A DNA stretch of 64,000 nt from Minisyncoccia bacterium. GTDB lineage: Bacteria; Patescibacteriota; Minisyncoccia; Phycocordibacterales; UBA9973. The DNA lies in assembly GCA_049317285.1 (NCBI GenBank), contig JBMOIO010000002.1:15312-79311 (forward strand). The letters run 5' to 3'. Positions 6,146-33,513 of the stretch are shown here, piece after piece. The position numbers were made by a program, and so were the translations under genes. The notes beneath the pieces are model-generated. The model saw only the letters and a list, made by a program, of their open reading frames with translations. It ran no database searches and was not told where the DNA came from. The number at the start of each line of letters is the position of its first letter. The stretch's first letter is position 1.

Positions 6146-6191
6146 AAGAGGAGTTGCATATCCCCATACCCTATGGTACTATCTCTCCACT

Positions 6192-6437: not shown

Positions 6438-6456
6438 TTGAAGAAGTAGCACAACA

Positions 6457-6490
6457 AAAGACCGCGATTAACGCGGTCTTTTCCATTTTG
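6457..6490 (+). terminator. rho-independent terminator after rpmB
   Basis: aaagaccgcg-attaa-cgcggtcttt 10-bp stem followed by TTCCATTTT. Confidence 0.8.
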
Positions 6491-17043: not shown

Positions 17044-17044
17044 A

Positions 17045-17593: not shown

Positions 17594-17594
17594 A

Positions 17595-18128
17595 CTATTC
17601 TCTGATATTGCTTATATAAAATGCCAATGCCTTTGTCTGTGTTCCGGAAGATGCCGACCAGGAAACAGTGACTGTCACAAGCTTTGTCCCGGAGTCCAAG
17701 GTTCCGGTTGCAGAAATATCATCAGAGGCATCACGAGAAACAGCGGAGAGAACAACCGTGCGCGTAAAGCGGTCGACTACACCCGGAGTTTCCGTAAGTG
17801 TCCATACAGTCCCATTGTATGACAAATAGTAAGGAGTGCCTGGGGTAAGGGCGGCAATACTACTCCAGGACGCGTCACGAATCGATTTTGTTGCCTCGGC
17901 TCCCTCTTCAAGTAAGTACGACACTTGCGTACGCTCAAGTGCACGCTTCGAGACTTCAACCGTGTTTTGTATAGAGCCGATAAGGAGAATCAGCACCACC
18001 GCGATAATAGACGAGGCTATAATTACTTCTATAAGAAAAAATCCCGCCTTCGCCGCGCCATAGCCCGAAAGGGCGGAGGCGGGCTTTGTTCGGCTTCGGC
18101 GCGGCAAGCCGCGTGGATAAAAATTCAT
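17595..18128 (-). CDS. type IV prepilin-like minor pilin
   Basis: KAG/FFLIEVIIASSIIAVVL prepilin N-terminus. Confidence 0.65.
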   Translation of the reverse strand: MNFYPRGLPRRSRTKPASALSGYGAAKAGFFLIEVIIASSIIAVVLILLIGSIQNTVEVSKRALERTQVSYLLEEGAEATKSIRDASWSSIAALTPGTPYYLSYNGTVWTLTETPGVVDRFTRTVVLSAVSRDASDDISATGTLDSGTKLVTVTVSWSASSGTQTKALAFYISNIRE

Positions 18129-18136
18129 AAATCAAT

Positions 18137-18589
18137 TTAGTTTCTCGCAACAGTTCCGTTAGCAGTAACGGTAATAGTGCGGGTCGTGCTGCTTGGTAAT
18201 TGCAATTGCAGTGTACCATGCTGTGCAGTTGTTCCTCGCAATCGATCAAATGTTATTTCGGAGCCGCCACCAAAAAGCGCAACAGTTCCGAGTACTACTG
18301 GAGACTCGTAAAGAAAAATTTGATTCGTGCCGGACGTACTTTGATATGTTGATCCTTGAAAGAGGATTGCACGATCCGACTCGAAACGCACACCGTAGTT
18401 GGTGTTGTTAGTTCCTGCAAGTGTCTTTGCACGCGCTTCATTGATTACGGTGAGCACTGCATTGGTCGTATTTTGGAGCGCTTGTTCGCGTCTGAAACGG
18501 ATAACAGGGAGACTTATAACACCCACCAATACTGCGAGAATGGTCAGGACAATCAAAAGCTCGATAATAGTAAAACCTTTTGTGCTCAT
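18137..18589 (-). CDS. type IV pilin (prepilin N-methylation-type N-terminus)
   Basis: MSTKG/FTIIELLIVLTILAVL. Confidence 0.75.
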   Translation of the reverse strand: MSTKGFTIIELLIVLTILAVLVGVISLPVIRFRREQALQNTTNAVLTVINEARAKTLAGTNNTNYGVRFESDRAILFQGSTYQSTSGTNQIFLYESPVVLGTVALFGGGSEITFDRLRGTTAQHGTLQLQLPSSTTRTITVTANGTVARN

Positions 18590-18590
18590 A

Positions 18591-19796
18591 TTATTGAATA
18601 CTATCCATTAGCGAATACATTGGGGAGAGCATCGAGATTGCAAAAAATCCCACTGCCCCTCCGATAAAGATCATCAGTACCGGTTCAATAATAGTTGAAA
18701 GGTCTTTTGTTTTTGCATCAACTTCGGCTTCGTAAAATACAGCAATATCGAGAAGCATACTTGCAAGCTTCCCTGTTTCTTCCCCGACCGCCACCATCTC
18801 GCCGACCATCACCGGATAGAGATTCGTGTGCCGCTGCAGTACACTCGACATTGTTTCTCCCTTTTCGACCTGACTCTCAATTTCCGCAAGCACGGCCTTA
18901 TAGTAACTGTTTTGCAGCACATCCTTCGTAATACCGAGGGCCCGAGAAATACTCACTCCTGCAATCAGTAGGGATGAAAGGGTGCGGGCAGTGCGGGCGG
19001 CATTTACTTCCTGCACTAATACTCCCACAACTGGAATGCGAGTACTACTATAGTCTAAAAAGGTGCGAACTGCTGGGCGTTTCAGTGCGAAATACCCACC
19101 AGTCACTATCAGGGAAATACCAAGGAGGAGAAGGCCGATATGATTTGATATCATATCTGATACCCATACCACAATACGAGTTGAAGTAGGCAGATCCACA
19201 TTCAACTCCTTAAAGGTCTTTGTCAGTACAGGAACAATATAAATAAACATCAGTATGCCAATAATAAATATCGCGACAATAATAATTGCCGGATACATGA
19301 GTGCACTTTTGACCTTGCGGTTGAGATTGTAGCTCTTTTCAAGGTTCCCGCCGACCTCCATCAATGCTTCAGGTAATCCTCCTGACTCTTCTCCTGCCTT
19401 TACCATCGCAATAAAAAGACTTGAGAAAGTATTGGGGAACTTTGAAAGTGCGCTTGAAAAAGTCTCTCCATTATCAATACTTGCAATCAATGATTCAAAA
19501 ATTGTTTTAAAATAGCTGTTAGTGGTCTGTTTTTTCAAGACAACCAATGCTCGGGCAAGTGGAAGTCCTGCACGAAGCATGCCTGCGAGATTCTTTGTAA
19601 AAATAATCTTCTCACTGAGCTTAACCCGCTTCATCATACCGTCAAGCGTAAATGTTTTCTTCTTTTTTTCTACAACAGTGATAGGTGTAAGCCCCATCTC
19701 GCGCAGTGTAATTATCGCCTCGGTTTTACTGGACTCTTCTATCACCCCTTCGGTCATTGCGCCGGTTGCATTTCGAGCCGTATAAGAAAATACCAT
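18591..19796 (-). CDS. pilC: type IV pilus assembly platform protein PilC (GspF family)
   Basis: 401 aa; two GspF repeats; three TM segments. Confidence 0.85.
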   Translation of the reverse strand: MVFSYTARNATGAMTEGVIEESSKTEAIITLREMGLTPITVVEKKKKTFTLDGMMKRVKLSEKIIFTKNLAGMLRAGLPLARALVVLKKQTTNSYFKTIFESLIASIDNGETFSSALSKFPNTFSSLFIAMVKAGEESGGLPEALMEVGGNLEKSYNLNRKVKSALMYPAIIIVAIFIIGILMFIYIVPVLTKTFKELNVDLPTSTRIVVWVSDMISNHIGLLLLGISLIVTGGYFALKRPAVRTFLDYSSTRIPVVGVLVQEVNAARTARTLSSLLIAGVSISRALGITKDVLQNSYYKAVLAEIESQVEKGETMSSVLQRHTNLYPVMVGEMVAVGEETGKLASMLLDIAVFYEAEVDAKTKDLSTIIEPVLMIFIGGAVGFFAISMLSPMYSLMDSIQ

Positions 19797-19839
19797 ACAG
19801 TCAGTGTAACAAGGAGTGGGGTACTATGCTACCAGAGTA

Positions 19840-21585
19840 CTACTCGCTGACAACACGCAACACATCATCAATCGTTGTTTTTCCATGAACCGCTTGGAAT
19901 ATGCCGTCTTCGAGCATGGTCATCATCCCCTCTTTTTTTGCTTGTGCTTCCACTTCGTCGGCGGTACCATTGCGCAAAATGATTTCCTTAATGGCGGGCG
20001 TCACTTTCATTGCTTCGTGAATACCAATACGCCCTTTGTAGCCGTCTTCACTTTCTTCTGAAGGTTTTGGTTTATAAAAAGGAATCTTCTCCCATGGCGT
20101 TCCCTTTTCAATAACATTCTCGGATTCGAGAAACCCTCGCATTCGGTCGAGATCGAGAACATGCGTGAGTGAGGCTATTTCAGACGCTGAAAGAAAATAC
20201 TGCTCTTTAGCGGTAGTAAGTCGGCGCACTAACCGCTGGGCCAAAATTGCTTTTGCGGTCGAGACGATGAGAAACGGCTCAACACCCATATCAATCAAGC
20301 GCGGAATAGCGCCTGCGGCCGAATTGGTGTGGATAGTCGAGAGCACTAAGTGTCCGGTCAGAGCTGCGTTTACAGCAAGGTCTGCCGTTTCGCCGTCTCG
20401 CACCTCACCAACCATAATAATATTCGGATCCTGACGAAGTAGTGCGCGCAAACCGTTTGCAAACGTCATACCAATATCTGCCTTTACTTGCGTTTGATTG
20501 ATGCGTGGCATTTGGTATTCGATTGGGTCTTCGACTGTAGAAATATTTACTTCGGGGGTATTTAAAATATCCAACAATGTATAGAGTGTTGTTGTCTTAC
20601 CGCTCCCTGTCGGACCGGAAGCCAAAATGATGCCTGAGTGCTGACGCAATGCTTCATGAATCGCTTCAAGTCCGCTTCCATGAAAGCCAAGTCCCTCGAG
20701 CGTGAATCCGTGTGTACTCTCGCGCAAAATACGAATAACAGCTTTTTCACCATAGTAGGTAGGGATAGTGGACACGCGAAACGATACAGGCGCCTCGTCG
20801 AGCACTATTTTAAAGCGCCCATCCTGGGGCAAGCGCTTTTCATCGAGCTTGAGGTTTGAAAGCACTTTGATGCGCGCAGTAATCGCGGGCGCCGCCCCTT
20901 TCGGAAGCGTCATTGCATCGTGCAAGATACCGTCGATGCGGTAGCGGATAATCATTTCATTCTCCCCGGGCTCCATATGAATGTCCGATGCGCCTTGCAT
21001 GATTGCATGAGAAATAAGCGAGTCAACAATTTTGATTACCGGCAAGTCTTCTGCAAGCGCCTTGAGGTCTCCTTCAGATGCGTCAGCTTTTGCTTCAGGA
21101 ACAGCGTTCAGTGAAAGCGCTTCCTTTTGAATAATAGCCCCGAACTCCGCCTGCAGGCTTTTTCGGTACTGCTGCAAAACTGCCTTGATGGTCTCAGTGT
21201 CGGTGAGACGCGGCAAGATACGCAGCCCCGTTTTCTTTTTTATAAAGTCGATTACCGGCAGGTTGTCGATATCGAGGACCGCAATCTCCAAGTCGCTCCC
21301 CGACTTTTTGTACGCGACAATGTTATATCTACGCGCAATGGACTCCGGAATAAGCGCGAGAATGTCCGGGTCGAGACGCTCTTTCGTAAGCCCGATAAAC
21401 GGAATACCGAGTACATACGCTTCAAGGCGCTTGATTTCACTCTCCTTCACCTTTCCTTCGGTCAAAAGAAAATCTGAAAGCGATTGTGCGGTATTTTTCC
21501 GACGGTCATACGCTTCGATGTCGCCGAGGCTTGCAATGTTTGCATCGAGCACTAAATTGCGGAGTTTTGCTTGGTCGATTACCAT
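19840..21585 (-). CDS. pilB: type IV pilus assembly ATPase PilB (GspE family)
   Basis: 581 aa; Walker A GPTGSGKTTTLY, Asp box, Walker B, His box; N-terminal GspII_E domain. Confidence 0.9.
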   Translation of the reverse strand: MVIDQAKLRNLVLDANIASLGDIEAYDRRKNTAQSLSDFLLTEGKVKESEIKRLEAYVLGIPFIGLTKERLDPDILALIPESIARRYNIVAYKKSGSDLEIAVLDIDNLPVIDFIKKKTGLRILPRLTDTETIKAVLQQYRKSLQAEFGAIIQKEALSLNAVPEAKADASEGDLKALAEDLPVIKIVDSLISHAIMQGASDIHMEPGENEMIIRYRIDGILHDAMTLPKGAAPAITARIKVLSNLKLDEKRLPQDGRFKIVLDEAPVSFRVSTIPTYYGEKAVIRILRESTHGFTLEGLGFHGSGLEAIHEALRQHSGIILASGPTGSGKTTTLYTLLDILNTPEVNISTVEDPIEYQMPRINQTQVKADIGMTFANGLRALLRQDPNIIMVGEVRDGETADLAVNAALTGHLVLSTIHTNSAAGAIPRLIDMGVEPFLIVSTAKAILAQRLVRRLTTAKEQYFLSASEIASLTHVLDLDRMRGFLESENVIEKGTPWEKIPFYKPKPSEESEDGYKGRIGIHEAMKVTPAIKEIILRNGTADEVEAQAKKEGMMTMLEDGIFQAVHGKTTIDDVLRVVSE

Positions 21586-22214: not shown

Positions 22215-23474
22215 CTAGTCCTGAAAAATAATAAGGTTTGTCGCACTGTTGATATGGAAGTAGACGTATTCATCAGTTGCACCTCCGAAAGTGCGCTCTC
22301 GTGCTGCCCGCCCCTTAATCTTCCCATAAAACTCAATTGTGTCCCCTACATTTAGCGTTCGGCCATATGACTGATAGCTCACACTATAGGGCATTGTCGT
22401 ATACGGATCATCTTTTGCATCACGCCCGAAAGTCCAATTCCAATTACCCTCCTTGCAGGTATAGTTTGCCCAAGAGTATCCAGGAAAAGGATTATTATAT
22501 CCACCCTCATTACATTCTGTAAAGAAGTATGATCCTGCATTTGCCGTATCAAAATCCCCTTCCCACGCTACGCCCGATGGAAATTGAATAGGATCAGGAA
22601 GCGGATTAAAGGTTCCATTACTCTTATAGTCCCCCGGAGTAGGGAGCTTTGTTTCAACGCCGTTGATGTTTACATAAAAATCTACCCAGATACTAAACCG
22701 AGTGCGCTCAGTATCGCGAACAGTCAATTGTCCAGAGGAAGAAAAGTTAATATTGTATACACCCGCCTCTGTTACAGTCAGTACTTTACCACTCGCTCCT
22801 GGAGAAAGAGAGGTTGGGTGATAGGTTGAAATAGTACTACAGGTAGGACTAAGCATGCTTAAAGAAAACTTCATCAGGTTTGGATTGTAATTTTTGGTGG
22901 TGGGGAGTTCCCAAATCGCATTTGCAATATTGTGTGTCAACAGACATCTATTCCCTACAACTTGTTCTGTACAGTTCCCTGTCTTTATATTGCGCACATG
23001 CCCAAAAGGAACTGTTTCTTGGTTACCCGAAATGTTTCTGCACATATCTGGTACACAGAGGTTTATCACCCCATTAGCATCAGCACATAGCGCCTTGTTA
23101 CTGTCATTTGCCACGCGCTGATTTTGAATATAGCTATTTGCCAAAATATTTCCACTTACCGCAATGTTTCCCACTACACCACCAGCAGTACTTCCTACAG
23201 CAACAGTTGAATTAGTGTCTACAGGAGTACCTCCGCGCACCACACCTTGAAGCGAAAGCGTTTGCTCAAAAGAACTGTTTTGAGAAACAAGAAAATCTTG
23301 CACAGAAAGTCCACCGCTTTTTATCTGTGCAGGACCAACATGAACAGGGAGCGATTTATTTCCCGCATACAGATCAGCCGATGGAGCTGCCCACTGAGCA
23401 GTAACAGAAACACCAAAGGCAAATACGAGTCCGAAGGCGATATATTTAAGATTGGTGAGAAGTGTTTTTTTCAT
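22215..23474 (-). CDS. secreted G/S/T/N-rich surface protein, paralog 3 of a tandem family
   Basis: Sec signal MKKTLLTNLKYIAFGLVFAFG; shares the N-terminal region and the C(A)D..G...LC cysteine motif with the two upstream genes. Confidence 0.55.
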   Translation of the reverse strand: MKKTLLTNLKYIAFGLVFAFGVSVTAQWAAPSADLYAGNKSLPVHVGPAQIKSGGLSVQDFLVSQNSSFEQTLSLQGVVRGGTPVDTNSTVAVGSTAGGVVGNIAVSGNILANSYIQNQRVANDSNKALCADANGVINLCVPDMCRNISGNQETVPFGHVRNIKTGNCTEQVVGNRCLLTHNIANAIWELPTTKNYNPNLMKFSLSMLSPTCSTISTYHPTSLSPGASGKVLTVTEAGVYNINFSSSGQLTVRDTERTRFSIWVDFYVNINGVETKLPTPGDYKSNGTFNPLPDPIQFPSGVAWEGDFDTANAGSYFFTECNEGGYNNPFPGYSWANYTCKEGNWNWTFGRDAKDDPYTTMPYSVSYQSYGRTLNVGDTIEFYGKIKGRAARERTFGGATDEYVYFHINSATNLIIFQD

Positions 23475-23477
23475 AAA

Positions 23478-24233
23478 TTATTGGCAGCTGTTAAAGGTGA
23501 TGATAAACGATGGACTATCTTCGCTAAGTCCAAAGGCAGTCGCATTGTCGGAGAACGGGATTGGTGTTCCTGTATCTAAACACATCCAATTCATTGCAGT
23601 AATAGTATAACTTCCCAACGATACAACTGTCGGAACTGTGGTGTTGTTCACTGTATAGATTTGACCAGTAGCATTGTTTCGAATAGTAACAGCATCTCCT
23701 ACTTGGTTTGGTCTAAAAGAAATCAATACAGATCCCATTGGTTCTAGTGCTCCTGTCTCTGTAGTCCACACTGCAGGATCACACAACACAAGCGTTCCTG
23801 TTTCGTCGGCACATACTGCACCATCAGTAGGATTTGCGAGCGGATTGCTTTGCACCGTGTAATTAGTATTTGCCACGCCTCCTGAAACGGCAACATGTGT
23901 TGGCACTTCGACATTAGGACCTCCAAAACGAACAGTTCCTACTGTCGTACCAGGTGCACCCCCACGAAGCCCTCCTGTGAAGAAGGTTGTTCCATCAATC
24001 TGTGCGTTTGCAAGCGCGATAAACCATTCACCTATCGAAAGCGAGCCTGCCTTCACCTGATCAGTACTATTCACGTACACTGGTGTTGAGGCGTTATTGT
24101 TGGGGAATGAAGCACTCGGGCCGGAATAGGAATTGGTGAGCCCACCCCATGACGCATGTGCATAGCTTGCCCCCATAGCAAGAACAAGACCGAGAGCGAT
24201 GAATTTTAAATTAGTGAGAAGTGTTTTTTTCAT
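23478..24233 (-). CDS. secreted surface protein, paralog 2 of the tandem family
   Basis: MKKTLLTNLKFIALGLVLAMG signal; GGLRGGAPG; VCADETGTLVLC; C-terminal ITFNSCQ. Confidence 0.55.
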   Translation of the reverse strand: MKKTLLTNLKFIALGLVLAMGASYAHASWGGLTNSYSGPSASFPNNNASTPVYVNSTDQVKAGSLSIGEWFIALANAQIDGTTFFTGGLRGGAPGTTVGTVRFGGPNVEVPTHVAVSGGVANTNYTVQSNPLANPTDGAVCADETGTLVLCDPAVWTTETGALEPMGSVLISFRPNQVGDAVTIRNNATGQIYTVNNTTVPTVVSLGSYTITAMNWMCLDTGTPIPFSDNATAFGLSEDSPSFIITFNSCQ

Positions 24234-24242
24234 AAAAATAAT

Positions 24243-24986
24243 TTAACAGCTAAAGTTAAAGGTGATGGTGTATGAATCTCCGTCATTGAGAACAAAATCT
24301 GTTCCTCCTCCCCGGGTCATAACAGGGTCGTTTGTAGTGGTACACACTATATCCGTATTGGTGATGGTATAACTACCAATCGGCACCACTTTTCCAGTTG
24401 AAATGCCCATAGTGAATCCTGGAGCCATATCAAGTCTGTGCAACGATCCATCATTATTATTATTCACCATCACAAACGTACCAGTCTGCTGGGAGCCCTC
24501 AATATAAAAGTCTAGAGAGGCGCTTGGGGTTGCAGCCACAGGTGCCGGTGCAGCGGGGGCAGTAGAAGGAGAAGTGCAAAGGAAAAATGTTCCGTCTGCA
24601 TTAGCGCACACCGGTTTTTTCCCACCACCACTGACAAGAGAGTTTGACTGTATTGTTCCAAGAGTGCTGATAGAGCCGTTTATAGTAGTATTCACCCCGT
24701 AGCTACTGTTACCAATCGCAACCGTGTTTGATCCATCGCTCTGAATGTTGCCCCCTGTCACAACTCCTCCAGCAAATGTTTCTTGACTGAACAAAGCGTT
24801 TCCTCGAGCCTGAAATGTTGTTGTAGAAAATCCTCCTGCTTTATCTTGACTAAGCGCGCTCGTATTGATTGGTGCATCAGTGTTTGCGCCAAATGCTCCT
24901 GTTGTTGGAGGAGTGTAGGCTGAAACAGCGCCGGCAATGCCGAGAGCGAGACCAAGAGCGATAAGGCGGTAATGGATGAGTTTCAT
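24243..24986 (-). CDS. secreted surface protein, paralog 1 of the tandem family
   Basis: Sec signal; VCANADGTFFLC; C-terminal ITFNFSC; 10-nt spacing to next gene. Confidence 0.55.
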   Translation of the reverse strand: MKLIHYRLIALGLALGIAGAVSAYTPPTTGAFGANTDAPINTSALSQDKAGGFSTTTFQARGNALFSQETFAGGVVTGGNIQSDGSNTVAIGNSSYGVNTTINGSISTLGTIQSNSLVSGGGKKPVCANADGTFFLCTSPSTAPAAPAPVAATPSASLDFYIEGSQQTGTFVMVNNNNDGSLHRLDMAPGFTMGISTGKVVPIGSYTITNTDIVCTTTNDPVMTRGGGTDFVLNDGDSYTITFNFSC

Positions 24987-24987
24987 A

Positions 24988-25323
24988 TTAGTTATTTAAA
25001 CTGTTAAGCATTTGTAGTCGATCGCTGGGCGTTGTTTTTGTCGGAGACGAAGTTGCTCCGAGTACGCTCCCTTGAGCAAAGACCTGCTCAGGAGTCTTGT
25101 TCACCGGAAGAGAAGACTCAGAAAGTGAGCGAAGTGCCTCTTCAGGACTGAGTGCCTTATCCTTTTGTTCCATGAAATACCATACCGCTAACCCAACAAC
25201 AATAACGATACATATAATAGCCACTGCTGTGCGTTGTTTTTTCTGTTCATAACCACTGAGAACCGCATGTTCTTCAAGAACGCGTGGATTGTAGTTATTG
25301 TTTTGTACTGCGGTAGATTCCAT
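24988..25323 (-). CDS. small single-pass membrane protein
   Basis: 111 aa; one TM (VAIICIVIVVGLAVWYF). Confidence 0.4.
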   Translation of the reverse strand: MESTAVQNNNYNPRVLEEHAVLSGYEQKKQRTAVAIICIVIVVGLAVWYFMEQKDKALSPEEALRSLSESSLPVNKTPEQVFAQGSVLGATSSPTKTTPSDRLQMLNSLNN

Positions 25324-25336: not shown

Positions 25337-26605
25337 CTAAAATTCTATGAATATCGGCTTTTTTACCGCTACGCATGCACCCTGTGGGTTAACTGTCATA
25401 TTAGTAGGGATGCTAAGTTGTACATCCGCAATATTTGGACACCAGTCCGTAGTAAGGTCAGGGTAACCAATCGGCACGCATTGACTGCTTTCGTTTATCG
25501 TATATCCAGCTGGTGCTGCAAGTTGTACACCAATAATATTCGGGCAGACATCACCGACCCCTCCATCGCCCGGAGGGGTGCCGCCTCCTCCAGTACCATT
25601 AGGACAGCTGTTGTTTACTGGTGTCGCTCCGTCTGGGCAACGCTTAGTAATCTGAGTACAAGAAGAGTCTGTACAGTCTGGGCAAATACCGTTAGAAGGT
25701 TTTGGTGCACCATTTGGACAGAAGAGATTTTTCTGTGTTGGGGTACAGTTACCAGTTACCAGGTCAATGACCAGTGTCGAAGGAAGGTTGTTTCTGAAAT
25801 ACGCCTGATACGGTGGCTGACAGGCTGCACCTAGTCCACCTGGTGGAACACATTGCCCATTGGTGTCTATTGTATAACTAGGAGGAAGTGCATTTTTCTT
25901 TATGTGAGTGTATGGACTGTTAGGACAATACTGTGTTGCAAGAAGACAGTTTCCGTCAGTGTCCCGAGTGAGCCCTTGTTGGGTGAGGTATGCTTGGTCT
26001 TGATTCCCTGCAATATCAAGACAGAGGTCCACAGTCGGTGTTGTCGTTATCTTTGCATCACCTTGAACCGCGATCCAGCCAAGCACCTCAGAGCCCCAAA
26101 TGGAGCCATTAATACTGCGCGTTGTTCCGTTGAGTGCCCCAAGAGTGAGTCCGTATCCGCTTCCGGAGAGCGAAAGGAACCCATCCCAGCCTCCTAAATA
26201 AGCATTATCCGCCAGAGCACCACTGCAACCAGAAGCAAAAACAGAGCAGGCGCGTGCCCATCCCTCGACAGTAGAGGTCACAGTATTAAGGCGTGCTCCC
26301 GCTGTACATCCGCTTGTCGGACAACCAGCATCGTTAAATGTAATCCAGCCAATATTGGAAGACCACGCAGTACCAGAAACTGTTCCTGTTATCGGATCAA
26401 TCGTTACGCCATAGGTATACCCTGTACAAGTATTAGAGTCCGCTGCGTCAGTACAGTTGTTGAGCGATATCCACCCGGTATTTGAAGACCACATGCTTCC
26501 GCTTGCATTATTATTGGTACCCGCGCGCAAAGAAGACGCAGTGAACAATACAATGGCGGTTACAACAGTGAGTGCAATGAAAAGTACTTTAGTGCGAGTC
26601 TTCAT
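25337..26605 (-). CDS. secreted Cys-rich protein with W-rich repeats and C-terminal KKPIFIEF tail
   Basis: signal peptide; four xWSSNxGWIxxN-type repeats; Cys-rich C-terminal half; terminal ...VCPNIIGVQLAAPAGYTI...KKPIFIEF. Confidence 0.6.
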   Translation of the reverse strand: MKTRTKVLFIALTVVTAIVLFTASSLRAGTNNNASGSMWSSNTGWISLNNCTDAADSNTCTGYTYGVTIDPITGTVSGTAWSSNIGWITFNDAGCPTSGCTAGARLNTVTSTVEGWARACSVFASGCSGALADNAYLGGWDGFLSLSGSGYGLTLGALNGTTRSINGSIWGSEVLGWIAVQGDAKITTTPTVDLCLDIAGNQDQAYLTQQGLTRDTDGNCLLATQYCPNSPYTHIKKNALPPSYTIDTNGQCVPPGGLGAACQPPYQAYFRNNLPSTLVIDLVTGNCTPTQKNLFCPNGAPKPSNGICPDCTDSSCTQITKRCPDGATPVNNSCPNGTGGGGTPPGDGGVGDVCPNIIGVQLAAPAGYTINESSQCVPIGYPDLTTDWCPNIADVQLSIPTNMTVNPQGACVAVKKPIFIEF

Positions 26606-26685
26606 GAATACATAGAGTATAGTGCACATGCGACAACACGCGCAAGGAGTTATCCCGTGTTATGTAAAGAAAAATTGAAAGAACA

Positions 26686-27582
26686 TTAAAACTCAGTAAA
26701 GATCGGTTTCTTTTTATTGAAAATAAAACTCGAATAAGAACTACCGTTACATGCAGCCTGTCCTCCTGTTACTGTGCCAGGTACAATAATATCAGTCGCT
26801 ACTTCCCATGTATCCCCTCCGCGAGGAACTAGTGTTACTGTTTTTGTACTTGCGCCCCATGTGACAGTACATGTTCCACTACCACCAATATGAGTGATGA
26901 CAATTCGTTTTGTTGATCCGCTCGGAGCGGTTGGTGGAGTACCAGGGTCGACAGGAATAGCCGGGTCATACGGCGGATCTACATGTAGCACTGTTGTCTG
27001 AATACAATTTCCTCCTGAAAATGAGTACCCTGCAGGAATCGCTGTTTGTGTGCCAGAAAGATTAGGACATACATCTGTTACTGGAGGACACGCAGCGGTA
27101 CTGCATGCTTGAGATTCAACTGCACTTCCCACACACGGAGCACCTCCGTTTAATGGTGGAGTACAGGTGCGAGTACGAGTCTGCGTGCCTGTTTGTCCGC
27201 AGGCGTTTACACTGCAATCACTCCATGGCCCCCATGGGCCCCAGAAACCATCAACAGGAGTCAATGGGCACGCAGCGGTACTGCATGGTTGAGACTCAAC
27301 CGAGTCTCCCACACAAGGAGCACCTCCGTTTAATGGTGGAGTACAGGTGCGAGTACGAGTCTGCGTGCCTGTTTGTCCGCATGCACTTACACTACAGTCA
27401 CTCCATGGTCCCCATGGACCCCATGATCCGTCGACAGGAGTTGGCGGAACAACAGTGTATTCGATCGAGAAATTAAAATACTCCCACGCCGCATTAGCGC
27501 GCTCTGGAATTGCAAACGAACAAACTGCAATGAGTACAAGAGTGGTAAAAAAGAGTGCGAGTTTTTGTTTCATAATATGCAT
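26686..27582 (-). CDS. secreted protein with two tandem thrombospondin type-1 (TSP1) repeats and C-terminal KKPIFTEF tail
   Basis: signal peptide; twice WGPWGPWSDCSVxACGQTGTQTRTRTCTPPLNGGAPCVG..VESQxCSTAAC, matching the TSR layout WxxWxxW / CSxxCG / RxRxC / GGxxC / 6 Cys; terminal NKKKPIFTEF. Confidence 0.75.
   Translation of the reverse strand: MHIMKQKLALFFTTLVLIAVCSFAIPERANAAWEYFNFSIEYTVVPPTPVDGSWGPWGPWSDCSVSACGQTGTQTRTRTCTPPLNGGAPCVGDSVESQPCSTAACPLTPVDGFWGPWGPWSDCSVNACGQTGTQTRTRTCTPPLNGGAPCVGSAVESQACSTAACPPVTDVCPNLSGTQTAIPAGYSFSGGNCIQTTVLHVDPPYDPAIPVDPGTPPTAPSGSTKRIVITHIGGSGTCTVTWGASTKTVTLVPRGGDTWEVATDIIVPGTVTGGQAACNGSSYSSFIFNKKKPIFTEF
27082..27441 (-). repeat. 2 x 180-bp near-identical tandem repeat encoding the two TSP1 modules
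   Basis: copies begin at 27089 and 27269 on the plus strand; ~90% identical with a ~66-nt perfect core; antisense ORF 27105..27476 echoes it. Confidence 0.85.
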
Positions 27583-27589
27583 AGTTCTA

Positions 27590-29563
27590 TTAACATCTAA
27601 ATTGCGGCCAAACCTCAACTTCAGTTGAAGTTGTTGAAAAGCACTGCGAATCTATATTCGGAGGAAACAACCCGGCGTAAGGTGTTGACGGTCCGTACTC
27701 TTCTATACAGCTTTCACCTGCAGGAATAGTGACCTCTTTTGTTTCAAAACCAATAAATGAAGCATAGAACCTCCATCGCGCCGTAAATGTTACAGGGTTC
27801 GGGAGAGTGTATGTCTGTGGCGGATATGGGTCCCCAATATTCCACTCTTGTGCAAGACAGATACGAATAAGTCTTTTATAGTTACCCCAAAATCCACATG
27901 AACCCGGAATACATCCAAATGAGGATCCAACAGGGTCATGGGTGTACACCATCCCTGAGGCAGGTATCTTTTGTACGGCGTCTTGTACCTTTATCCCTCC
28001 CTTAAAGCTCGCTGAAAAGACCCCTGCAGAGGCTTGCGCTGTACCAATCGTTGCTGTCCCAAAAAGACTTCCACCGGAAGAAATACTGTTTTCACCTATA
28101 ATCGAAACTAGTGCTCCATTTACACCTCCTTCAAGCGAAGCAGTGTCGACATTCGTTGATTCTGATTGAATCGATGTCGTAACAGAAATGGTTTCATTTT
28201 GCTGATACGAGCTTTTGTTGGTATTTATTGTGAAATGAAGCGGGCCGTTTGCCGAACCCTGAATCGTATACGTTGCCGCAGAAGCAGTAGAAGTAATTCC
28301 CCAAGCAAATAAGAAGAGGAGAAGAGCAATGGTATTTACTGTCGCACTATTATTAGCAGCCTGCTTTTTCTTGATATACCACAGTACTGCACCCAAGAGT
28401 GCAAGTACTCCAAGAACCAATAGTGCGATAGTGCCCCATTTTACGGGACGCTTCACTGAAGTAGTCTCAAATACAACAGACATATCATCAAATACTTCCC
28501 CTGTTGCGTCCTTCAATACAAGTGTCACTTCTGGATTGTAACAAGCATTAAGAATAGGAATCTCTATTGTAGAAAAGACGCTTCCTTCATCAAGTACAAG
28601 CAGAGATTCATATGCCGCAGCACAGCTTCGCCCTGTATCGCTCTTTATTACTACATTCGCCACTATTTCCTTTGTAGTAGCAGACCACAAAAGAGAAAGT
28701 CGCGCGGTTTCATTTTTAATATAAAAATCCTTATCAAGAGTCATATTGGCAATCTTTGCGGTCGGACCAGCAACAGTGTATGGAAAAGATATCATGCCAG
28801 ACGCACCATCAAGCGTGACAGTAAGGTTATATAACCCCGCTTTCTCGCTACGAGGAAGCGTAAGGATGAGCGGCTGTTCTGGCTGTTCAGAGAGTGCAAT
28901 TGCTCCAGTATCTCCTCCTACAACTGCAATCTCTTCACCAAATGCACTCCCTTCGCGGGTTATATAGCGAGGAGTAACAGAAAGGGGGGCTCCTGTCGGG
29001 TTTTTTATTACGCACAAAAGCCGAAACGATTCTTCTGGCAAAAGAATAACGTTTGCGTGGGGTATATACCCCGTCGCAGTGACAGGTTTCACTTCAGTTC
29101 TGCAAGAGAGAGGGTCGATGGAGACGCCGTTTTCTGATGCAACAAGCGTTACTTCTCCTGCAACTGTTATTCCGAACAGAAAACCGCTTTGGTTTCGGGC
29201 GCGCACGAGAACCGTATAGGATCCATCGAGGGTTGTGGGTACATCATAAATAACTTCGCGTGAAAGAGAGCTATTCGGGGCAAGTGTCAAAATTTCTTCA
29301 TATATTTTCTCGTCAACAAGGGTCTGCTTACCCCCTTCATTACTCACTAAGCTCACGCTATAGCGAACATCGGACTGCATCCCTTCACCGTTGTTGAGCT
29401 CAAACCCGACCGTAATCTCTCCTCCTTCATACGAGAGTACTCGCGCGTTTTGAATATTAACCGAGGCAACCTTGACCGGTCCATTTTCTGATACTTGCGC
29501 ACTTGCCACTATAGGGAAGAGCGCGAGTGCAGCGAGAAGAAATGAAAATAGATAGCGATTCAT
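27590..29563 (-). CDS. large surface protein, two extracytoplasmic domains separated by a TM hairpin
   Basis: start reset to MNRYLFSFLLAALALFPIVASA; central WGTIALLVLGVLALLGAVLWYIKKKQ and IALLLFLFAWGITSTASA hydrophobic segments. Confidence 0.5.
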   Translation of the reverse strand: MNRYLFSFLLAALALFPIVASAQVSENGPVKVASVNIQNARVLSYEGGEITVGFELNNGEGMQSDVRYSVSLVSNEGGKQTLVDEKIYEEILTLAPNSSLSREVIYDVPTTLDGSYTVLVRARNQSGFLFGITVAGEVTLVASENGVSIDPLSCRTEVKPVTATGYIPHANVILLPEESFRLLCVIKNPTGAPLSVTPRYITREGSAFGEEIAVVGGDTGAIALSEQPEQPLILTLPRSEKAGLYNLTVTLDGASGMISFPYTVAGPTAKIANMTLDKDFYIKNETARLSLLWSATTKEIVANVVIKSDTGRSCAAAYESLLVLDEGSVFSTIEIPILNACYNPEVTLVLKDATGEVFDDMSVVFETTSVKRPVKWGTIALLVLGVLALLGAVLWYIKKKQAANNSATVNTIALLLFLFAWGITSTASAATYTIQGSANGPLHFTINTNKSSYQQNETISVTTSIQSESTNVDTASLEGGVNGALVSIIGENSISSGGSLFGTATIGTAQASAGVFSASFKGGIKVQDAVQKIPASGMVYTHDPVGSSFGCIPGSCGFWGNYKRLIRICLAQEWNIGDPYPPQTYTLPNPVTFTARWRFYASFIGFETKEVTIPAGESCIEEYGPSTPYAGLFPPNIDSQCFSTTSTEVEVWPQFRC

Positions 29564-29674
29564 AAAAATAAAAATTGTATTACAATTCAGTATACCTAAC
29601 TTAATCCTACTATAACAACAAGTTATACCCATATATAAAAAACCTCTTTGCTATAAAGCAAAGAGGTTGGAGGA

Positions 29675-30418
29675 TTATGGTACAGGAATAAGCACTCGCT
29701 GATCTCTATATGTCCATATACCAACTCCTGGAGTACCCTGTGCCGGTCGCTCAAGGAGGAGTGTTTCATTAGAAAATGAAGCGCTGTACTCCACTCCCTC
29801 AATCCAAAGCAGAAACTTACCTTCGTGATTTCGAAATTTCCAGGGAGTGGTCCCTATTGGAATTTCAGAACATGCCGGATTTGGTGAACGGCTTCGGTGG
29901 TACCGTTTATCAAGATAAAAAGTTCGGACCATTCCCCATTCGCAGCTAGTTGATGCTGTAATGGCAATTTTTTGCTCAGATCCACCAGCAGTCTCAACTT
30001 TCCAGTAGTATTCGGCAGTGGTTTTCCAGGAAGCGGCGTCTTTATTTCTCAACAACAGCAACATGTTTTGATCAGGCAATGCAACTGAAACCTTTACAGT
30101 GCTAGTAGTGGTACCTCCGGGACCGGTTGCAGAAAATACTATGCTGGTATCGCGCTTCAGAGCACGCAACATGAATGAGCCACTAACCTTTCCAATATCC
30201 TCACTGGCACGTCCTGGCCAGGACACACTGATTCCGTCTGAAATAAACGAAACTTTTGTGCTATCGCCGTACCCTACCATTGAAGGCTCGACTGAGACTG
30301 TCATGCTTGGTTTTGGAAGGACAGGAGGAGGGGGAGCAACAGGATTAACCGGTTCAATATGCTCGGGTTTACAACTCATAACGACTATCACTACGAGAAG
30401 CAAGTACTTTTTTTTCAT
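29675..30418 (-). CDS. putative lipoprotein
   Basis: MKKKYLLLVVIVVMSCK signal/lipobox-like, Pro-rich linker. Confidence 0.45.
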   Translation of the reverse strand: MKKKYLLLVVIVVMSCKPEHIEPVNPVAPPPPVLPKPSMTVSVEPSMVGYGDSTKVSFISDGISVSWPGRASEDIGKVSGSFMLRALKRDTSIVFSATGPGGTTTSTVKVSVALPDQNMLLLLRNKDAASWKTTAEYYWKVETAGGSEQKIAITASTSCEWGMVRTFYLDKRYHRSRSPNPACSEIPIGTTPWKFRNHEGKFLLWIEGVEYSASFSNETLLLERPAQGTPGVGIWTYRDQRVLIPVP

Positions 30419-30638
30419 CGTTATATGATTTTAATGACTTTTTTTCAGTATGTCACACCTTTTTAAAAAAGCAATAGTTTTTCCCTCCTATAGCAACAAG
30501 AAGAAGGTTTCTTAAAAATTGTTTTTAATTTCTTGCGTCCTCAGGACAGTATGCTATACATATATATGTACATGTCCCGAGCGCACCTTTGTGGCATTTT
30601 TAGTAACAATTAAATAACCAACTAAATAAAATAGACAT
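30419..30638. promoter_or_regulatory. divergent promoter region (lipoprotein gene / nusA)
   Basis: 220-bp AT-rich intergenic stretch between divergent genes with several TATA-like boxes; no motif assigned. Confidence 0.3.
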
Positions 30639-32541: not shown

Positions 32542-33513
32542 TTAGATTCGCATTCTTTGTCTGATTTCATACGTATCACCATGCATCAACAATCCGCGAT
32601 ACGAGTTAACCGTTTCCGACTTAGGATATCCCTTAAGCTTTTTGAATATCTTTCTCTTTGTGGTGGTTCGTATTTGACGATGATAGGGAAAATGTATCCA
32701 CCCAAGAAAATCGACACCTGTTGCGAATGTCTTGATGTACACTTTGTGCTCGTGCATTTGAAGCTTTAACTTTTCATTCAAGAAAGCATGGATTTTTTGA
32801 AGAATGCCTTCCAAGTATTCCTTTGTACTGGACAGTATGACAAAATCATCCGCATAGCGGATATAGTATGTTACTCGAAGCCCCTGCTTCATGAACATAT
32901 CAAATTCATGCATGTATACATTTACCAACAATTGAGAAGTAAGGTTTCCGAGCGGTAACCCCACTCCTTCTCTCGTCGTATGAAAACTTGAGGTAACTTC
33001 CCGGATGAGCCACAACAGTTCTTCATCCTCAACATGACGCTTCAAAATTAAAACAAGTATTTCATGATCGATACTTGCAAAGAATTTCTTGATGTCACAC
33101 TTGAGTACATAACATGTCCTCGTATTGTTCTTTGAAACCCTCAGGGCAAATTCCTGAAAACGATCAATTGCTCTGTGAGTTCCCTTGTTCACACGACATG
33201 AAAACGAGTCATGAATGAATCTCTGTTCAAAATAAGGATAAAGCGTCTTATATATTAAATGATGTAACAGTCTGTCTCGGACAATCGCCTTGTGGATATT
33301 CCGAGGCTTTGGGTCAGAGATATTAAAAGCCCAGTATGGCGCATGAGTGTACGTCCGACGGTGAAGCAAGGTGTGCAAGTCGACCAGGTTGTCCGAAAGT
33401 TTCGCCTGGTATTGTATGACATCTTTTTTATGTCGCTTTCCACGAAGAAAACGCTCCCAGGTAACAAGGAGGTTTTCCATCGATATGATATCTTTGTATT
33501 TATGAATCAGCAT
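32542..33513 (-). CDS. diversity-generating retroelement reverse transcriptase
   Basis: 323 aa; RT motifs 1-7 including YIRYADDFVIL and the DGR-specific LPLGNLTSQL (I/LGxxxSQ) in place of the group II QGxxxSP. Confidence 0.9.
   Translation of the reverse strand: MLIHKYKDIISMENLLVTWERFLRGKRHKKDVIQYQAKLSDNLVDLHTLLHRRTYTHAPYWAFNISDPKPRNIHKAIVRDRLLHHLIYKTLYPYFEQRFIHDSFSCRVNKGTHRAIDRFQEFALRVSKNNTRTCYVLKCDIKKFFASIDHEILVLILKRHVEDEELLWLIREVTSSFHTTREGVGLPLGNLTSQLLVNVYMHEFDMFMKQGLRVTYYIRYADDFVILSSTKEYLEGILQKIHAFLNEKLKLQMHEHKVYIKTFATGVDFLGWIHFPYHRQIRTTTKRKIFKKLKGYPKSETVNSYRGLLMHGDTYEIRQRMRI

What the first reader, a model, noticed from the sequence alone, without database searches (positions are those of the whole stretch)
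25337..27582. Two adjacent secreted Cys-rich proteins share a conserved C-terminal tail KKPIF[IT]EF-COOH and a preceding VCPN..G.Q.A.PAGY module
The gene 25337..26605 ends ..KKPIFIEF and the gene 26686..27582 ends ..NKKKPIFTEF. Both have ..DVCPNxxGxQxAxPAGY(T/S).. about 70-80 aa upstream. A basic-plus-hydrophobic extreme C-terminus shared by neighbouring surface proteins could be an undescribed sorting, anchoring or partner-recognition tag. Other secreted proteins in the cluster end differently (FNSCQ, FNFSC, QFRC).
Basis: seen in the sequence. Interest (0 to 1): 0.65.

Follow-up and report, generated by a model that had tools for sequence, protein, structure and literature searches.

The report
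Conserved C-terminal docking tag near pilus genes
Two neighbouring secreted proteins of a Paceibacterota (candidate phyla radiation) bacterium end in the same short tail (K-P-I-F-x-E-F); this tail proves to be a widespread, undescribed C-terminal motif on variable surface proteins encoded beside type IV pilus genes, and most likely plugs them onto a partner such as the pilus tip.

Summary
Both genes are on the minus strand and end in KKPIF[I/T]EF, but are otherwise unrelated apart from one small Cys module.

The tail is not a leftover of a local duplication:
- 74 of 120 homologues of gene A end in aromatic-x-Glu-x. Pro at -6 occurs in 65 of those 74 and Glu at -2 in all 74.
- 70 of 111 further representatives of a roughly 4000-cluster family carry the short form or longer variants (..P-x-W-x-E-I-x-P-F, sometimes followed by a ~20-residue helix).
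- Background is 1 in 680 unrelated ORFs.
- In a partial scan of 185,579 genomes, all 7 in-frame K-P-I-F-x-E-F-stop matches on long ORFs were in Patescibacteria.
- Tail codons differ at synonymous sites, so selection acts on the peptide.
- AlphaFold leaves the tail free rather than packed against its own protein.

The genes lie within 4 kb of a pilB-pilC-minor-pilin operon in 8 of 11 loci. That operon's PilK-like pilin ends in a similar W-K-E-I strand.

Best reading (about 0.4): a PilY1-like C-terminal strand that docks interchangeable adhesins onto the pilus tip complex. Rivals are docking to a cassette partner, or a membrane-anchoring or sorting signal. No Pfam or NCBIfam model or paper describes the tail.

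The parts
25337..26605 (-). Gene A: secreted Cys-rich modular protein of 422 aa, made of signal sequence, conserved N-terminal domain, Cys-rich modules and tail.
   Evidence: ORF and translation. It has 228 homologues in Paceibacterota, Nomurabacteria and related groups. No Pfam, NCBIfam or PHROG hit.
25340..25363 (-). Tail of A: K-K-P-I-F-I-E-F, followed by stop TAG at 25337-25339.
   Evidence: In the AF2 model it has no secondary structure, and pLDDT falls from 65 to 40.
26036..26518 (-). Conserved N-terminal domain of A (about residues 30-190) with repeated W-S-S-N-x-G-W-I motifs. It defines a large family found in candidate phyla radiation bacteria.
   Evidence: AF2 pLDDT about 90. Exhaustive phmmer found 4039 cluster representatives at E <= 1e-3. 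No PDB match by fold (best E = 0.45) or by sequence profile.
25478..25546 (-). Cys-bounded CPN-x2-G-x-Q...P-x-G-Y module in A.
26686..27582 (-). Gene B: secreted 298-aa protein made of signal sequence, two TSP1 repeats, the CPN module, a beta-rich domain and the tail.
   Evidence: Its C-terminal 139 residues have no homologue in the 5.8-billion-protein search.
26689..26712 (-). Tail of B: K-K-P-I-F-T-E-F, followed by stop TAA at 26686-26688.
   Evidence: Its codons differ from A's tail at synonymous sites.
27268..27420 (-). First thrombospondin type 1 repeat of B (residues 55-105).
   Evidence: Pfam TSP1_spondin best stretch 55-105 and TSP_1 with 2 stretches.
27088..27240 (-). Second thrombospondin type 1 repeat of B (residues 115-165).
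   Evidence: Pfam PF00090, E = 1.4e-24, best stretch 115-165.
27004..27069 (-). CPN module in B.
26647..30530 (.). Strain-variable 3.9-kb block (gene B, the 680-aa gene 27590..29632 and the 247-aa lipoprotein-like gene 29675..30418) lying between nusA and gene A.
   Evidence: In relative L152 (89-92% nucleotide identity) nusA joins directly to the region upstream of A, and the block is absent.
24988..25323 (-). Small single-pass membrane protein (111 aa) starting 14 nt after A's stop. It is a conserved partner gene of A-family genes.
   Evidence: Found next to A-family genes in L033, L066, L076, L115, L120, L121, L145, L146 and L152. Similar small TM genes occur in L143, L144, L147 and L150.
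22215..24986 (-). Three paralogous secreted proteins (247, 251 and 419 aa). They share an N-terminal region of about 140 aa, have variable C-terminal parts, and two of the three carry a Cys within the last three residues.
   Evidence: Relatives elsewhere carry Peptidase_S74, Shufflon_N or Hint modules.
15268..21585 (-). Type IV pilus operon: PilB ATPase 19840..21585, PilC platform 18591..19796, three Glu5 pilins (18137..18589 GspH-like, 17595..18128 GspI/ComGE-like, 17045..17593), and a 591-aa PilK-like pilin 15268..17043.
   Evidence: Pfam T2SSF and N_methyl. T2SSE on the PilB orthologue. NCBIfam. N-termini: the three pilins have Glu5; the 591-aa protein (QG|SVLIIT) lacks it.
15271..15288 (-). 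C-terminal strand of the PilK-like pilin, E-T-W-K-E-I. It has the same aromatic-x-Glu-hydrophobic core as the A and B tails.
   Evidence: The family consensus is ..S-W-K-E-T-[EQ] or W-K-E-[ILV] across 120 homologues. AF2 predicts strand 583-590 at pLDDT 77-86, after a low-confidence loop at 577-581.

Best explanation
The tail is a short linear C-terminal docking peptide. Its core is Pro-[I/V]-[F/Y/W]-x-Glu-[hydrophobic], usually preceded by Lys residues. It marks a large set of secreted, highly variable surface or adhesin proteins of Parcubacteria-type candidate phyla radiation bacteria.

Shown:
- The motif is conserved lineage-wide and selected at the protein level.
- It occurs on proteins with unrelated bodies.
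- It is not packed against its own protein in the monomer model.
- Its genes sit beside the operon for the type IV pilus motor and its GspH/I/J/K-like minor-pilin (tip-complex) set.
- The PilK-like pilin of that operon ends in a strand with the same aromatic-x-Glu-hydrophobic core.

Inferred: after Sec export, the tail forms a beta-strand that adds in trans to a groove or sheet of the pilus tip complex. The last ~10 residues of PilC/PilY1 do this with PilK-family pilins. Interchangeable adhesin bodies would thereby be tethered to the pilus that these episymbionts use to reach host cells. Examples of such bodies are gene A, the strain-specific TSP1-repeat protein B, and Ig- or PKD-repeat proteins elsewhere.
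For: Conservation:
- 74 of 120 A homologues end aromatic-x-E-x. Pro at -6 occurs in 65 of 74, I/V at -5 in 58 of 74, Glu at -2 in 74 of 74 and Phe at -1 in 43 of 74. Another 13 carry P-x-W-x-E-[IVT]-x-P, with or without a helix.
- Of 111 further 50%-identity representatives found with the N-domain alone, 43 have the short form, 17 the mid form and 10 the long form.
- Background is 1 in 680.

Specificity: in the genome scan for K-P-I-F-x-E-F-TAR, 119 matches were returned. The 7 that terminate long ORFs are all in Patescibacteria. The other 112 lie in ORFs of 72 codons or fewer in other taxa.

Independence from protein body: the tail occurs on B, on L069 5617..6873 and on L147 8417..9901, which lack A's N-domain, and on L100, whose N-terminus is cut off. 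B sits in a 3.9-kb block absent from a relative with 89-92% nucleotide identity.

Peptide-level selection: Pro, Ile, Phe, Glu and Phe codons vary synonymously between loci.

Free tail: the AF2 model of A gives the N-domain pLDDT about 90, while the tail is coil with pLDDT 65 falling to 40.

Pilus linkage:
- A pilB-pilC-minor-pilin operon lies within 4 kb in the window, L120, L143, L145, L146, L147 and L150.
- In L144 the gene sits inside the pilus cluster, directly upstream of three minor pilins and a 120-aa Glu5-less PilX_N pilin that has no C-terminal W-K-E strand.
- B-like tail genes abut pilB in L069 and L075.

Shared motif: the Glu5-less 591-aa PilK-like pilin ends W-K-E-I, and the family consensus is S-W-K-E-T-[EQ]. 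AF2 makes this a confident terminal strand.

Precedent: PMC12918778 shows genetically and biochemically that a 6-12 residue C-terminal strand supplies beta-strand complementation in type IV filament tip complexes. PilC/PilY1 (and, by modelling only, MshQ) supply it in trans; GspK, CpaL and ComGG supply it in cis.
Against: - No complex could be modelled, so no physical contact between the tail and any pilin has been shown.
- In this lineage the PilK-like pilin already carries its own cis strand. In the published scheme, such systems (GspK, CpaL) need no trans partner. The tail would have to displace that strand or bind elsewhere.
- I could not verify from coordinates that the cis strand packs on the pilin domain.
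- The A cassette occurs without an adjacent pilus operon in L121 and L151.
- Its most constant neighbours are the small membrane protein and the three fibre-like secreted proteins, not the pilins.
- A has no sequence or fold similarity to PilY1.
- Two tail-bearing proteins in one locus would compete for a single site.
- The long variants continue past the motif into a helix, which fits poorly with deep burial of a free C-terminus.
- E. coli GspK's terminal strand (IYRRTLQLY) shares no motif with the tail, so the analogy is structural only.
Confidence: 0.4

Rival explanations
1. The tail docks to a partner encoded in its own cassette rather than to the pilus. The partner could be the conserved N-terminal domain of A-family proteins (head-to-tail chaining, with B-type proteins plugging onto A). 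It could also be the small membrane protein translated right after A (a membrane anchor supplied in trans), or the three fibre-like secreted paralogues. Together these would form a separate surface fibre or adhesin complex.
For: The tail is tightly associated with the N-domain family: 63-73% of members carry it. A-family genes are almost always followed within 7-45 nt by a 100-125-aa single-pass membrane protein and by one to three secreted paralogues, even where no pilus operon is adjacent, as in L121. B and the L147 494-aa tail protein lie directly upstream of an A-family gene. Relatives of the secreted paralogues carry tail-fibre chaperone (Peptidase_S74) and PilV-like (Shufflon_N, E = 3.9e-22) modules, so they are probably fibres.
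Against: AF2 did not dock A's tail onto its own N-domain. B-like tail genes in L069 and L075 sit directly upstream of pilB with no A, membrane-protein or paralogue cassette in between. This reading does not explain why the PilK-like pilin shares the aromatic-x-Glu-hydrophobic ending.
Confidence: 0.25
2. The tail is an anchoring or sorting element. Either it is a basic-aromatic interfacial membrane anchor, or it is the motif part of a cleavable C-terminal sorting signal handled by an unidentified enzyme. In the second case the short form would be a minimal or pre-matured version.
For: In other lineages the same core motif is followed by x-P-[F/R], or by x-P-x-x-W plus an amphipathic or hydrophobic helix of 17-22 residues (for example LPEWKEIPPTSWLDKFLAVISGIFRI). 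That layout resembles motif-plus-helix sorting signals and in-plane membrane anchors. Lys residues precede the hydrophobic residues in the short form. In L144 a signal peptidase I gene lies directly upstream of the A-family gene.
Against: The short tail has only 5-6 residues, includes an invariant Glu and has no helix, which is too little for membrane anchoring. The long-form helix lacks the terminal basic cluster of LPXTG or PEP-CTERM-type signals. No NCBIfam sorting-signal model matches. None of the window ORFs scanned is a sortase, exosortase, rhombosortase or archaeosortase. No candidate enzyme recurs in the 11 loci examined.
Confidence: 0.2
3. The shared tail has no function of its own. 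It is the retained end of a local duplication or recombination between A and B, or a by-product of a DNA or RNA element (ribosome-binding site, translational coupling, terminator) at the gene end.
For: A and B are adjacent. The gene after A starts only 14 nt downstream of A's stop.
Against: A and B share no similarity outside one 22-residue module and the tail. The tail is conserved across hundreds of divergent homologues and on unrelated proteins. Codons vary at synonymous sites, and the downstream sequence differs between A (coupled gene) and B (80-nt spacer). B lies in an indel block absent from a close relative that keeps A's tail.
Confidence: 0.03

Closest known systems
C-terminal beta-strand of PilC/PilY1 tip adhesins (trans complementation of PilK-family minor pilins). 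The cis equivalents are in GspK, CpaL/TadG and ComGG. Source: Ellison et al. 2026 preprint, PMC12918778.
   Same: A very short (6-12 residue) extreme C-terminal peptide on a Sec-exported, non-pilin, adhesin-like protein encoded beside minor-pilin genes. A Glu5-less PilK-like pilin in the same operon ends in a similar strand.
   Different: There is no homology to PilY1: no PilY1 or Neisseria_PilC Pfam hit and no fold match. The conserved domain is N-terminal rather than a C-terminal propeller. Several different proteins per locus carry the tag. The local PilK-like pilin has its own cis strand. The sequence motif (P-I-F-x-E-F) is not shared with E. coli GspK. The interaction is untested.
Tripartite C-terminal sorting signals (LPXTG/sortase; PEP-CTERM, PEF-CTERM, PGF-CTERM and GlyGly-CTERM with exosortase, archaeosortase or rhombosortase)
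   Same: A short conserved motif at the C-terminus of many otherwise unrelated secreted proteins within one lineage. The long variants add a hydrophobic or amphipathic helix after the motif.
   Different: The short tail ends two residues after the Glu, with no helix and no basic cluster. The long helix has no basic tail. No NCBIfam signal model matches, and none of the window ORFs or called locus genes examined is a cognate sorting enzyme.
Donor-strand or strand-exchange tails of non-type-IV fibres (type V pili of Bacteroidota, chaperone-usher pili, TasA, archaeal bundling pili)
   Same: A terminal strand of one secreted subunit completes a fold in another subunit. This is compatible with the cassette of fibre-like secreted paralogues (recalled from established knowledge; not tested here).
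   Different: No homology to any of those subunits. Here the strand would be only about 5-6 residues. No polymerising Ig-like subunit was identified.
Saccharibacteria PilX1/PilX2 minor pilins with expanded C-terminal adhesin domains (PMC12206443)
   Same: These are type IV pilus-associated adhesin candidates in candidate phyla radiation bacteria. The window's 591-aa PilX_N-type pilin is of this kind.
   Different: Those are pilins carrying the adhesin domain in cis. A and B are non-pilin Sec proteins that would need to attach in trans.

Membership tests
PilC/PilY1 tip adhesin family | Conserved C-terminal PilY1 or Neisseria_PilC beta-propeller domain. | tested here: not met
   No Pfam family for A at E <= 0.1. 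The AF2 model has no PDB fold match (best E = 0.45). No PDB match by sequence profile.
PilC/PilY1 tip adhesin family | Extreme C-terminal ~10 residues form a strand that complements the PilK-family pilin. | not testable with these tools
   Only monomer prediction was available. In the monomer model the tail is free, with pLDDT 65 falling to 40. That is compatible with the feature but does not demonstrate it.
PilC/PilY1 tip adhesin family | Non-pilin, Sec-exported protein encoded next to the minor-pilin genes of a type IV pilus. | tested here: met
   A and B have signal sequences without a prepilin G|FxxxE site. A pilus operon lies within 4 kb in 8 of 11 loci, and in L144 the gene sits directly upstream of the minor pilins.
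Sortase substrates (LPXTG-type cell-wall sorting signal) | LPXTG-like motif, then a hydrophobic helix, then a basic tail at the C-terminus. | tested here: not met
   The tail ends ..KKPIFIEF with nothing after it. No Gram_pos_anchor or NCBIfam hit for A or B. No sortase among the window ORFs scanned.
PEP-CTERM / PEF-CTERM / PGF-CTERM / GlyGly-CTERM sorting domains | Signature motif followed by a transmembrane helix and an Arg/Lys cluster. A cognate exosortase, archaeosortase or rhombosortase is present in the genome. | tested here: not met
   No NCBIfam model hit on A, B or on the long and short variants P0120, P0087 and P0011. The short tail has no helix. The long-form helices lack a basic end. 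The cognate enzyme was not seen in the 64-kb window, but the whole genome is not available.
Thrombospondin type 1 repeat proteins (gene B only) | TSP1 repeat with the W-x-x-W / C-S-x-x-C-G pattern matching Pfam PF00090. | tested here: met
   PF00090 E = 1.4e-24, 86.5 bits against a cutoff of 21.6, two stretches.
Outer-membrane beta-barrel C-terminal beta-signal (terminal Phe) | Terminal Phe/Trp with alternating hydrophobic residues at -3, -5 and -7, on a beta-barrel protein. | tested here: not met
   Position -3 is variable (I, N, K, T, Q) while -2 is an invariant Glu. The AF2 model of A is not a barrel.
PilK/GspK-like apical minor pilin (the 591-aa neighbour 15268..17043) | Prepilin-type N-terminal helix lacking Glu5, last gene of an H-I-J-K-like minor pilin set, with a C-terminal strand returning to the pilin domain. 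| tested here: inconclusive
   Lacks Glu5 (QG|SVLIIT), while the three upstream pilins have it. Gene order is GspH-like, GspI/ComGE-like, pilin, then this gene. AF2 gives helix 9-67, a four-strand sheet at 75-118 and a confident last strand at 583-590.

The most novel reading that the evidence does not exclude
Parcubacteria-type candidate phyla radiation bacteria use a universal plug-in tag. Any secreted adhesin body that ends in P-[IV]-[FYW]-x-E-hydrophobic could be loaded onto the type IV pilus tip complex, or onto a so far unknown fibre built from the adjacent cassette. It would do so by strand insertion, possibly by displacing the PilK-like pilin's own look-alike cis strand. Strains could then change host-binding specificity simply by acquiring a new tagged gene, such as the 3.9-kb block carrying the TSP1-repeat protein B.
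Probability: 0.25. Interest if true: 0.8.

Novelty: new variant of a known kind. Interest (0 to 1): 0.62.

Why it matters
Candidate phyla radiation bacteria live attached to other cells. Type IV pili are the one appendage shown experimentally to mediate host binding in cultured relatives (PMC12206443). How the very variable surface proteins of uncultured Parcubacteria are displayed is unknown.

A short, easily searchable C-terminal tag gives three things:
- a simple rule for listing candidate host-interaction proteins in thousands of metagenome-assembled genomes. The tag is shared by most of the 231 members examined of a family with about 4000 clusters at 50% identity, and by unrelated proteins;
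- a concrete, testable docking hypothesis that extends the newly described PilY1 strand-complementation principle to a non-homologous protein set in monoderm ultrasmall bacteria;
- a handle (tag peptide versus candidate receptors) for biochemical work that needs no cultivation.

If the tag turns out to be a sorting or anchoring signal instead, it would be a new signal class for this phylum.

Tried and rejected
- Local duplication of A and B: rejected. BLASTP shows only a 22-residue shared module.
- Known sorting signal: no NCBIfam or Pfam model on A, B or the long variants.
- Homologues of B's C-terminal 139 residues: none at E <= 0.01, so orthologue conservation of B itself could not be assessed. 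A close relative lacks the whole block.
- Metagenome scan for K-x-K-P-I-F-x-E-F-TAR gave only 21 matches. Two were A-family proteins and one was a probable chance hit (L133, a 282-aa protein with no signal peptide).
- Foldseek of the PilK-like model against the PDB gave only partial phage-fibre matches and a weak whole-length ComZ match, with no GspK match.
- Foldseek of A against the PDB found nothing.
- PHROGs found nothing for any window protein of the cluster.
- E. coli K-12 GspK's terminal strand was compared and shares no motif.
- Covariation between tail class and PilK architecture was sought across loci. Only L144 has a PilK-like pilin without the cis strand, so there is no systematic pattern.
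- Outer-membrane beta-signal reading: rejected.
- DNA or RNA element reading: rejected because of synonymous codon variation.
Full report
**1. What is in the sequence**

The two ORFs are on the minus strand.
- Gene A (25337..26605, 422 aa) ends ..ACVAVKKPIFIEF-TAG.
- Gene B (26686..27582, 298 aa) ends ..FIFNKKKPIFTEF-TAA.

Both begin with Sec-type signal sequences and are Cys-rich, with 22 and 17 Cys.

BLASTP between them finds only one significant segment. This is the 22-residue module DVCPN..G.Q.A.PAGY, with 13/22 identities. The stretch between that module and the tail is unrelated in the two proteins.

The module lies 69 residues from the end in A and 127 residues from the end in B. It occurs in only 12 of 231 family members. 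A degenerate copy lies in the tail-less neighbour 22215..23474. It is therefore an independent small disulfide module, not part of the tag.

B additionally has two thrombospondin type 1 repeats (Pfam PF00090, E = 1.4e-24). A has no Pfam, NCBIfam or PHROG hit.

**2. The tail is conserved far beyond these two genes**

A search with A found 228 homologues, named by their sources as Paceibacterota, Nomurabacteria, Nealsonbacteria, Campbellbacteria and Vogelbacteria. Most share only the N-terminal ~180 residues with A, and their middle parts differ.

Among the 120 listed homologues:
- 74 end in aromatic-x-Glu-x.
- Of those 74, Pro is at -6 in 65, Ile/Val at -5 in 58, Phe/Tyr at -4 in 72, Glu at -2 in 74 and Phe at -1 in 43. 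Lys is common at -7 and -9.
- Position -3 is variable.
- Thirteen more carry the same core inside a longer ending, P-x-W-x-E-[IVT]-x-P. This either stops after 1-3 residues or continues into an amphipathic or hydrophobic helix of about 20 residues.

An exhaustive phmmer search with A's N-terminal 200 residues found 4039 cluster representatives at E <= 1e-3. Of 111 new representatives, 43 have the short tail, 17 the mid form and 10 the long form.

The background rate is 1 in 680 long ORFs from unrelated genomes, and none of those has Pro at -6.

**3. Specificity and independence from the protein body**

I scanned one genome per species (185,579 species) for K-P-I-F-x-E-F followed by TAA or TAG.

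Reading each match in frame:
- 112 lie in ORFs of 72 codons or fewer, scattered over unrelated phyla. These are chance matches.
- 7 terminate long ORFs, and all 7 are in Patescibacteria (L033, L066, L069, L075, L076, L100, L115).

Four of the seven are A-family proteins. The L069 protein (5617..6873) has a different body. After its signal peptide it starts FWVFNDLDITYNV, which resembles B's AWEYFNFSIEYTV. The truncated L075 gene has an L069-like C-terminal region, and L100 is a repeat protein whose N-terminus is cut off. L147 holds another non-A protein ending LPVYQEF.

Tail codons differ at synonymous positions between loci and between A and B: CCG/CCA/CCT, ATA/ATC/ATT, TTC/TTT and GAA/GAG. 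The downstream DNA is also unrelated. Selection therefore acts on the peptide, not on a nucleic-acid element.

A relative with 89-92% nucleotide identity (L152) keeps A and its tail but lacks the 3.9-kb block 26647..30530 that contains B. B is thus a strain-variable gene that nevertheless carries the tag.

**4. Structure**

The AlphaFold2 model of A, built from 72 sequences, gives a confident N-terminal domain (residues ~30-190, pLDDT about 90). The Cys-rich modules have low confidence. The tail has no secondary structure and its pLDDT falls from 65 to 40.

The tail is therefore not predicted to pack against its own protein. The N-domain has no PDB match by fold or by sequence profile.

**5. 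Genomic company**

In the window, the minus-strand array upstream of nusA reads as follows:
- a 247-aa lipoprotein-like gene;
- a 680-aa gene;
- B;
- A;
- a 111-aa single-pass membrane protein, starting 14 nt after A's stop;
- three paralogous secreted proteins (247, 251 and 419 aa), with Cys within the last three residues in the first two;
- a 137-aa Lipocalin_4-like lipoprotein;
- PilB;
- PilC;
- three pilins;
- a 591-aa PilX_N-type pilin;
- TIM and PGK.

The three small pilins have Glu5 and resemble GspH and GspI/ComGE. The 591-aa protein (QG|SVLIIT) lacks Glu5, as PilK/GspK-type apical pilins do.

The sub-cassette of A-family gene, small membrane protein and secreted paralogues recurs in every locus examined.

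Position relative to the pilus genes:
- A pilB-pilC-minor-pilin operon lies within 4 kb in the window, L120, L143, L145, L146, L147 and L150.
- In L144 (Nealsonbacteria) the A-family gene, whose tail is ..SPTWRETPPPR, sits inside the pilus cluster. It follows the prepilin peptidase and signal peptidase I genes. It lies directly before three minor pilins and a 120-aa Glu5-less PilX_N pilin. By alignment with the window protein, that pilin ends where the pilin-domain sheet ends and has no extra C-terminal strand.
- In L069 and L075, B-like tail genes abut pilB directly.
- L121 and L151 show no pilus genes in the available flank. L148 is cut by a contig end.

None of the window ORFs scanned is a sortase, exosortase or rhombosortase.

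**6. A look-alike strand on the PilK-like pilin**

The 591-aa pilin ends ..SGSWNIETWKEI. Across 120 homologues the C-terminus is ..G-S-W-x-[VI]-x-S-W-K-E-T-[EQ], or W-K-E-[ILV] in the window's clade.

AlphaFold2 (pLDDT 84) predicts a pilin helix at 9-67, a four-strand sheet at 75-118, large inserted beta domains, and a confident last strand at 583-590 after a low-confidence loop at 577-581.

The core aromatic-[K/R/x]-Glu-hydrophobic is the same as in the A and B tails. It is nearly identical to the mid and long A-family form P-E-W-K-E-I.

**7. Comparison with what is known**

A 2026 preprint (PMC12918778) reports the following:
- The last ~10-12 residues of PilC/PilY1 form a strand that complements PilK-family minor pilins.
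- This strand is essential and partly sufficient for pilus initiation.
- GspK, ComGG and the ~600-residue CpaL/TadG supply the equivalent strand in cis.
- For CpaL, the authors' AlphaFold modelling predicts that a fusion of only the last six residues might suffice. The construct tested experimentally was a deletion of the middle ~470 residues.

The window's 591-aa pilin fits the CpaL or GspK pattern. This is an inference, because I could not inspect coordinates.

A and B resemble PilY1 only in logic. They are Sec-exported, non-pilin, adhesin-like, carry a conserved extreme C-terminal peptide, and are encoded beside the tip-complex genes. They fail the homology criterion, with no PilY1 domain and no fold match.

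Work on cultured Saccharibacteria identifies pilins with expanded C-terminal domains as adhesin candidates. The passages I retrieved from that paper describe no trans-attached proteins (PMC12206443).

No Pfam or NCBIfam model and no paper found in five literature searches describes the tail.

**8. Most likely mechanism and its rivals**

I take as shown that the tail is a functional, lineage-wide linear motif acting in trans, and that it is genomically tied to the type IV pilus tip-complex operon and to a small cassette of surface proteins.

Best reading (about 0.4). The tail is a docking strand that tethers interchangeable adhesin bodies to the pilus tip complex, in the manner of PilY1. Points against:
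- The PilK-like pilin's own cis strand would have to be displaced, or another site used.
- Some loci lack an adjacent pilus operon.
- Several tagged proteins occur per locus.
- The long variants continue into a helix.

Cassette-partner rival (about 0.25). The tail docks to the N-domain (head-to-tail), the small membrane protein or the fibre-like paralogues. This explains the tight N-domain-tail association. It does not explain the tagged genes that sit alone next to pilB, nor the look-alike strand on the pilin.

Anchoring or sorting rival (about 0.2). This is suggested mainly by the motif-plus-helix long forms. It is weak for the 6-residue short form with its invariant Glu.

No intrinsic function (0.03). 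A leftover of duplication or a nucleic-acid artefact is contradicted by the conservation and the codon data.

**9. Verdict**

The motif appears undescribed. The probable mechanism is a new variant of a recently recognised principle. Interest is moderately high (0.62). The motif gives a searchable marker for candidate host-interaction proteins across Parcubacteria and a directly testable docking hypothesis. The partner remains unproven.

Noticed in passing
window 32542-35107: A diversity-generating retroelement. The reverse transcriptase gene is 32542..33513 (-) (Pfam RVT_1, E = 6.9e-24). A 122-nt template-like repeat at 33926-34047 matches a variable copy at 34391-34512, which is the 3' end of ORF 34385..35107 (-), a 240-aa protein with no Pfam hit. 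The two copies are 83% identical, and nearly all mismatches fall at adenines of the template copy.
   Followed up: partly
window 26647-30530: This 3.9-kb block (B, the 680-aa gene and a 247-aa lipoprotein-like gene) is absent from a relative with 89-92% nucleotide identity, in which nusA abuts gene A (L152). The nusA-to-TIM/PGK interval appears to be a hot spot for variable surface-protein genes.
   Followed up: partly
window 27088-27420 (gene B): Two near-identical thrombospondin type 1 repeats (W-G-P-W-G-P-W-S-D-C-S-V-x-A-C-G..), a domain typical of animals and apicomplexans, occur in a candidate phyla radiation bacterial protein. One A-family homologue (P0116, Nomurabacteria) also has a PF00090 hit.
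   Followed up: no
window 22215-24986 and relatives in L120, L121, L143-L147, L150: A family of secreted proteins shares an N-terminal region of about 140 aa. In relatives it reads ..W-T-E-P-S..P-P-x-G-N..A-P-I-N-V-G...Q-x-K-x-G-x-L. Many members have a Cys within their last 3 residues (FNFSC, FNSCQ, ITLNC ..). The C-terminal modules are swapped between members: Peptidase_S74 tail-fibre chaperone, Shufflon_N/PilV-like (E = 3.9e-22), or Hint. These are probably surface fibres.
   Followed up: partly
window 27590-29632: The 680-aa ORF has an internal membrane helix followed by KKKQ (residues ~400-424; weak LPXTG-anchor-like hit, E = 0.0037). A second signal-peptide-like segment then follows (..LLLFLFAWGITSTASA). 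It may be two fused genes or a two-ectodomain membrane protein. A P680-like gene precedes the B-like tail gene in L069 as well.
   Followed up: no
gene B residues 32-45 (window about 27448-27489) and L069 5617..6873: The two tail-bearing proteins that lack A's N-domain start their mature part with a similar strand-like motif (AWEYFNFSIEYTV and FWVFNDLDITYNV). This may be a second terminal docking element.
   Followed up: no
L151 1396..1896: The small membrane protein upstream of the A-family gene in this locus itself ends ..KIILQEF, a hydrophobic-x-E-F ending. This is a single case.
   Followed up: no
window 21672-22085 and 29675-30418; L145 8246..9949: Lipoprotein-type signal sequences (..ASCGKD..MSCKPE), a Lipocalin_4-like protein between the cassette and pilB, and in L145 a protein with a weak Por_Secre_tail (type IX secretion-like) hit all occur in the same hot spot.
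   Followed up: no
window 51499-52518 and 8392-9858: A tyrosine recombinase or integrase (Phage_integrase, E = 8.5e-43) and a ComEC competence channel gene lie in the window. ComEC, RecJ and RNase H follow the pilus/TIM/PGK region, as they do in L121.
   Followed up: no
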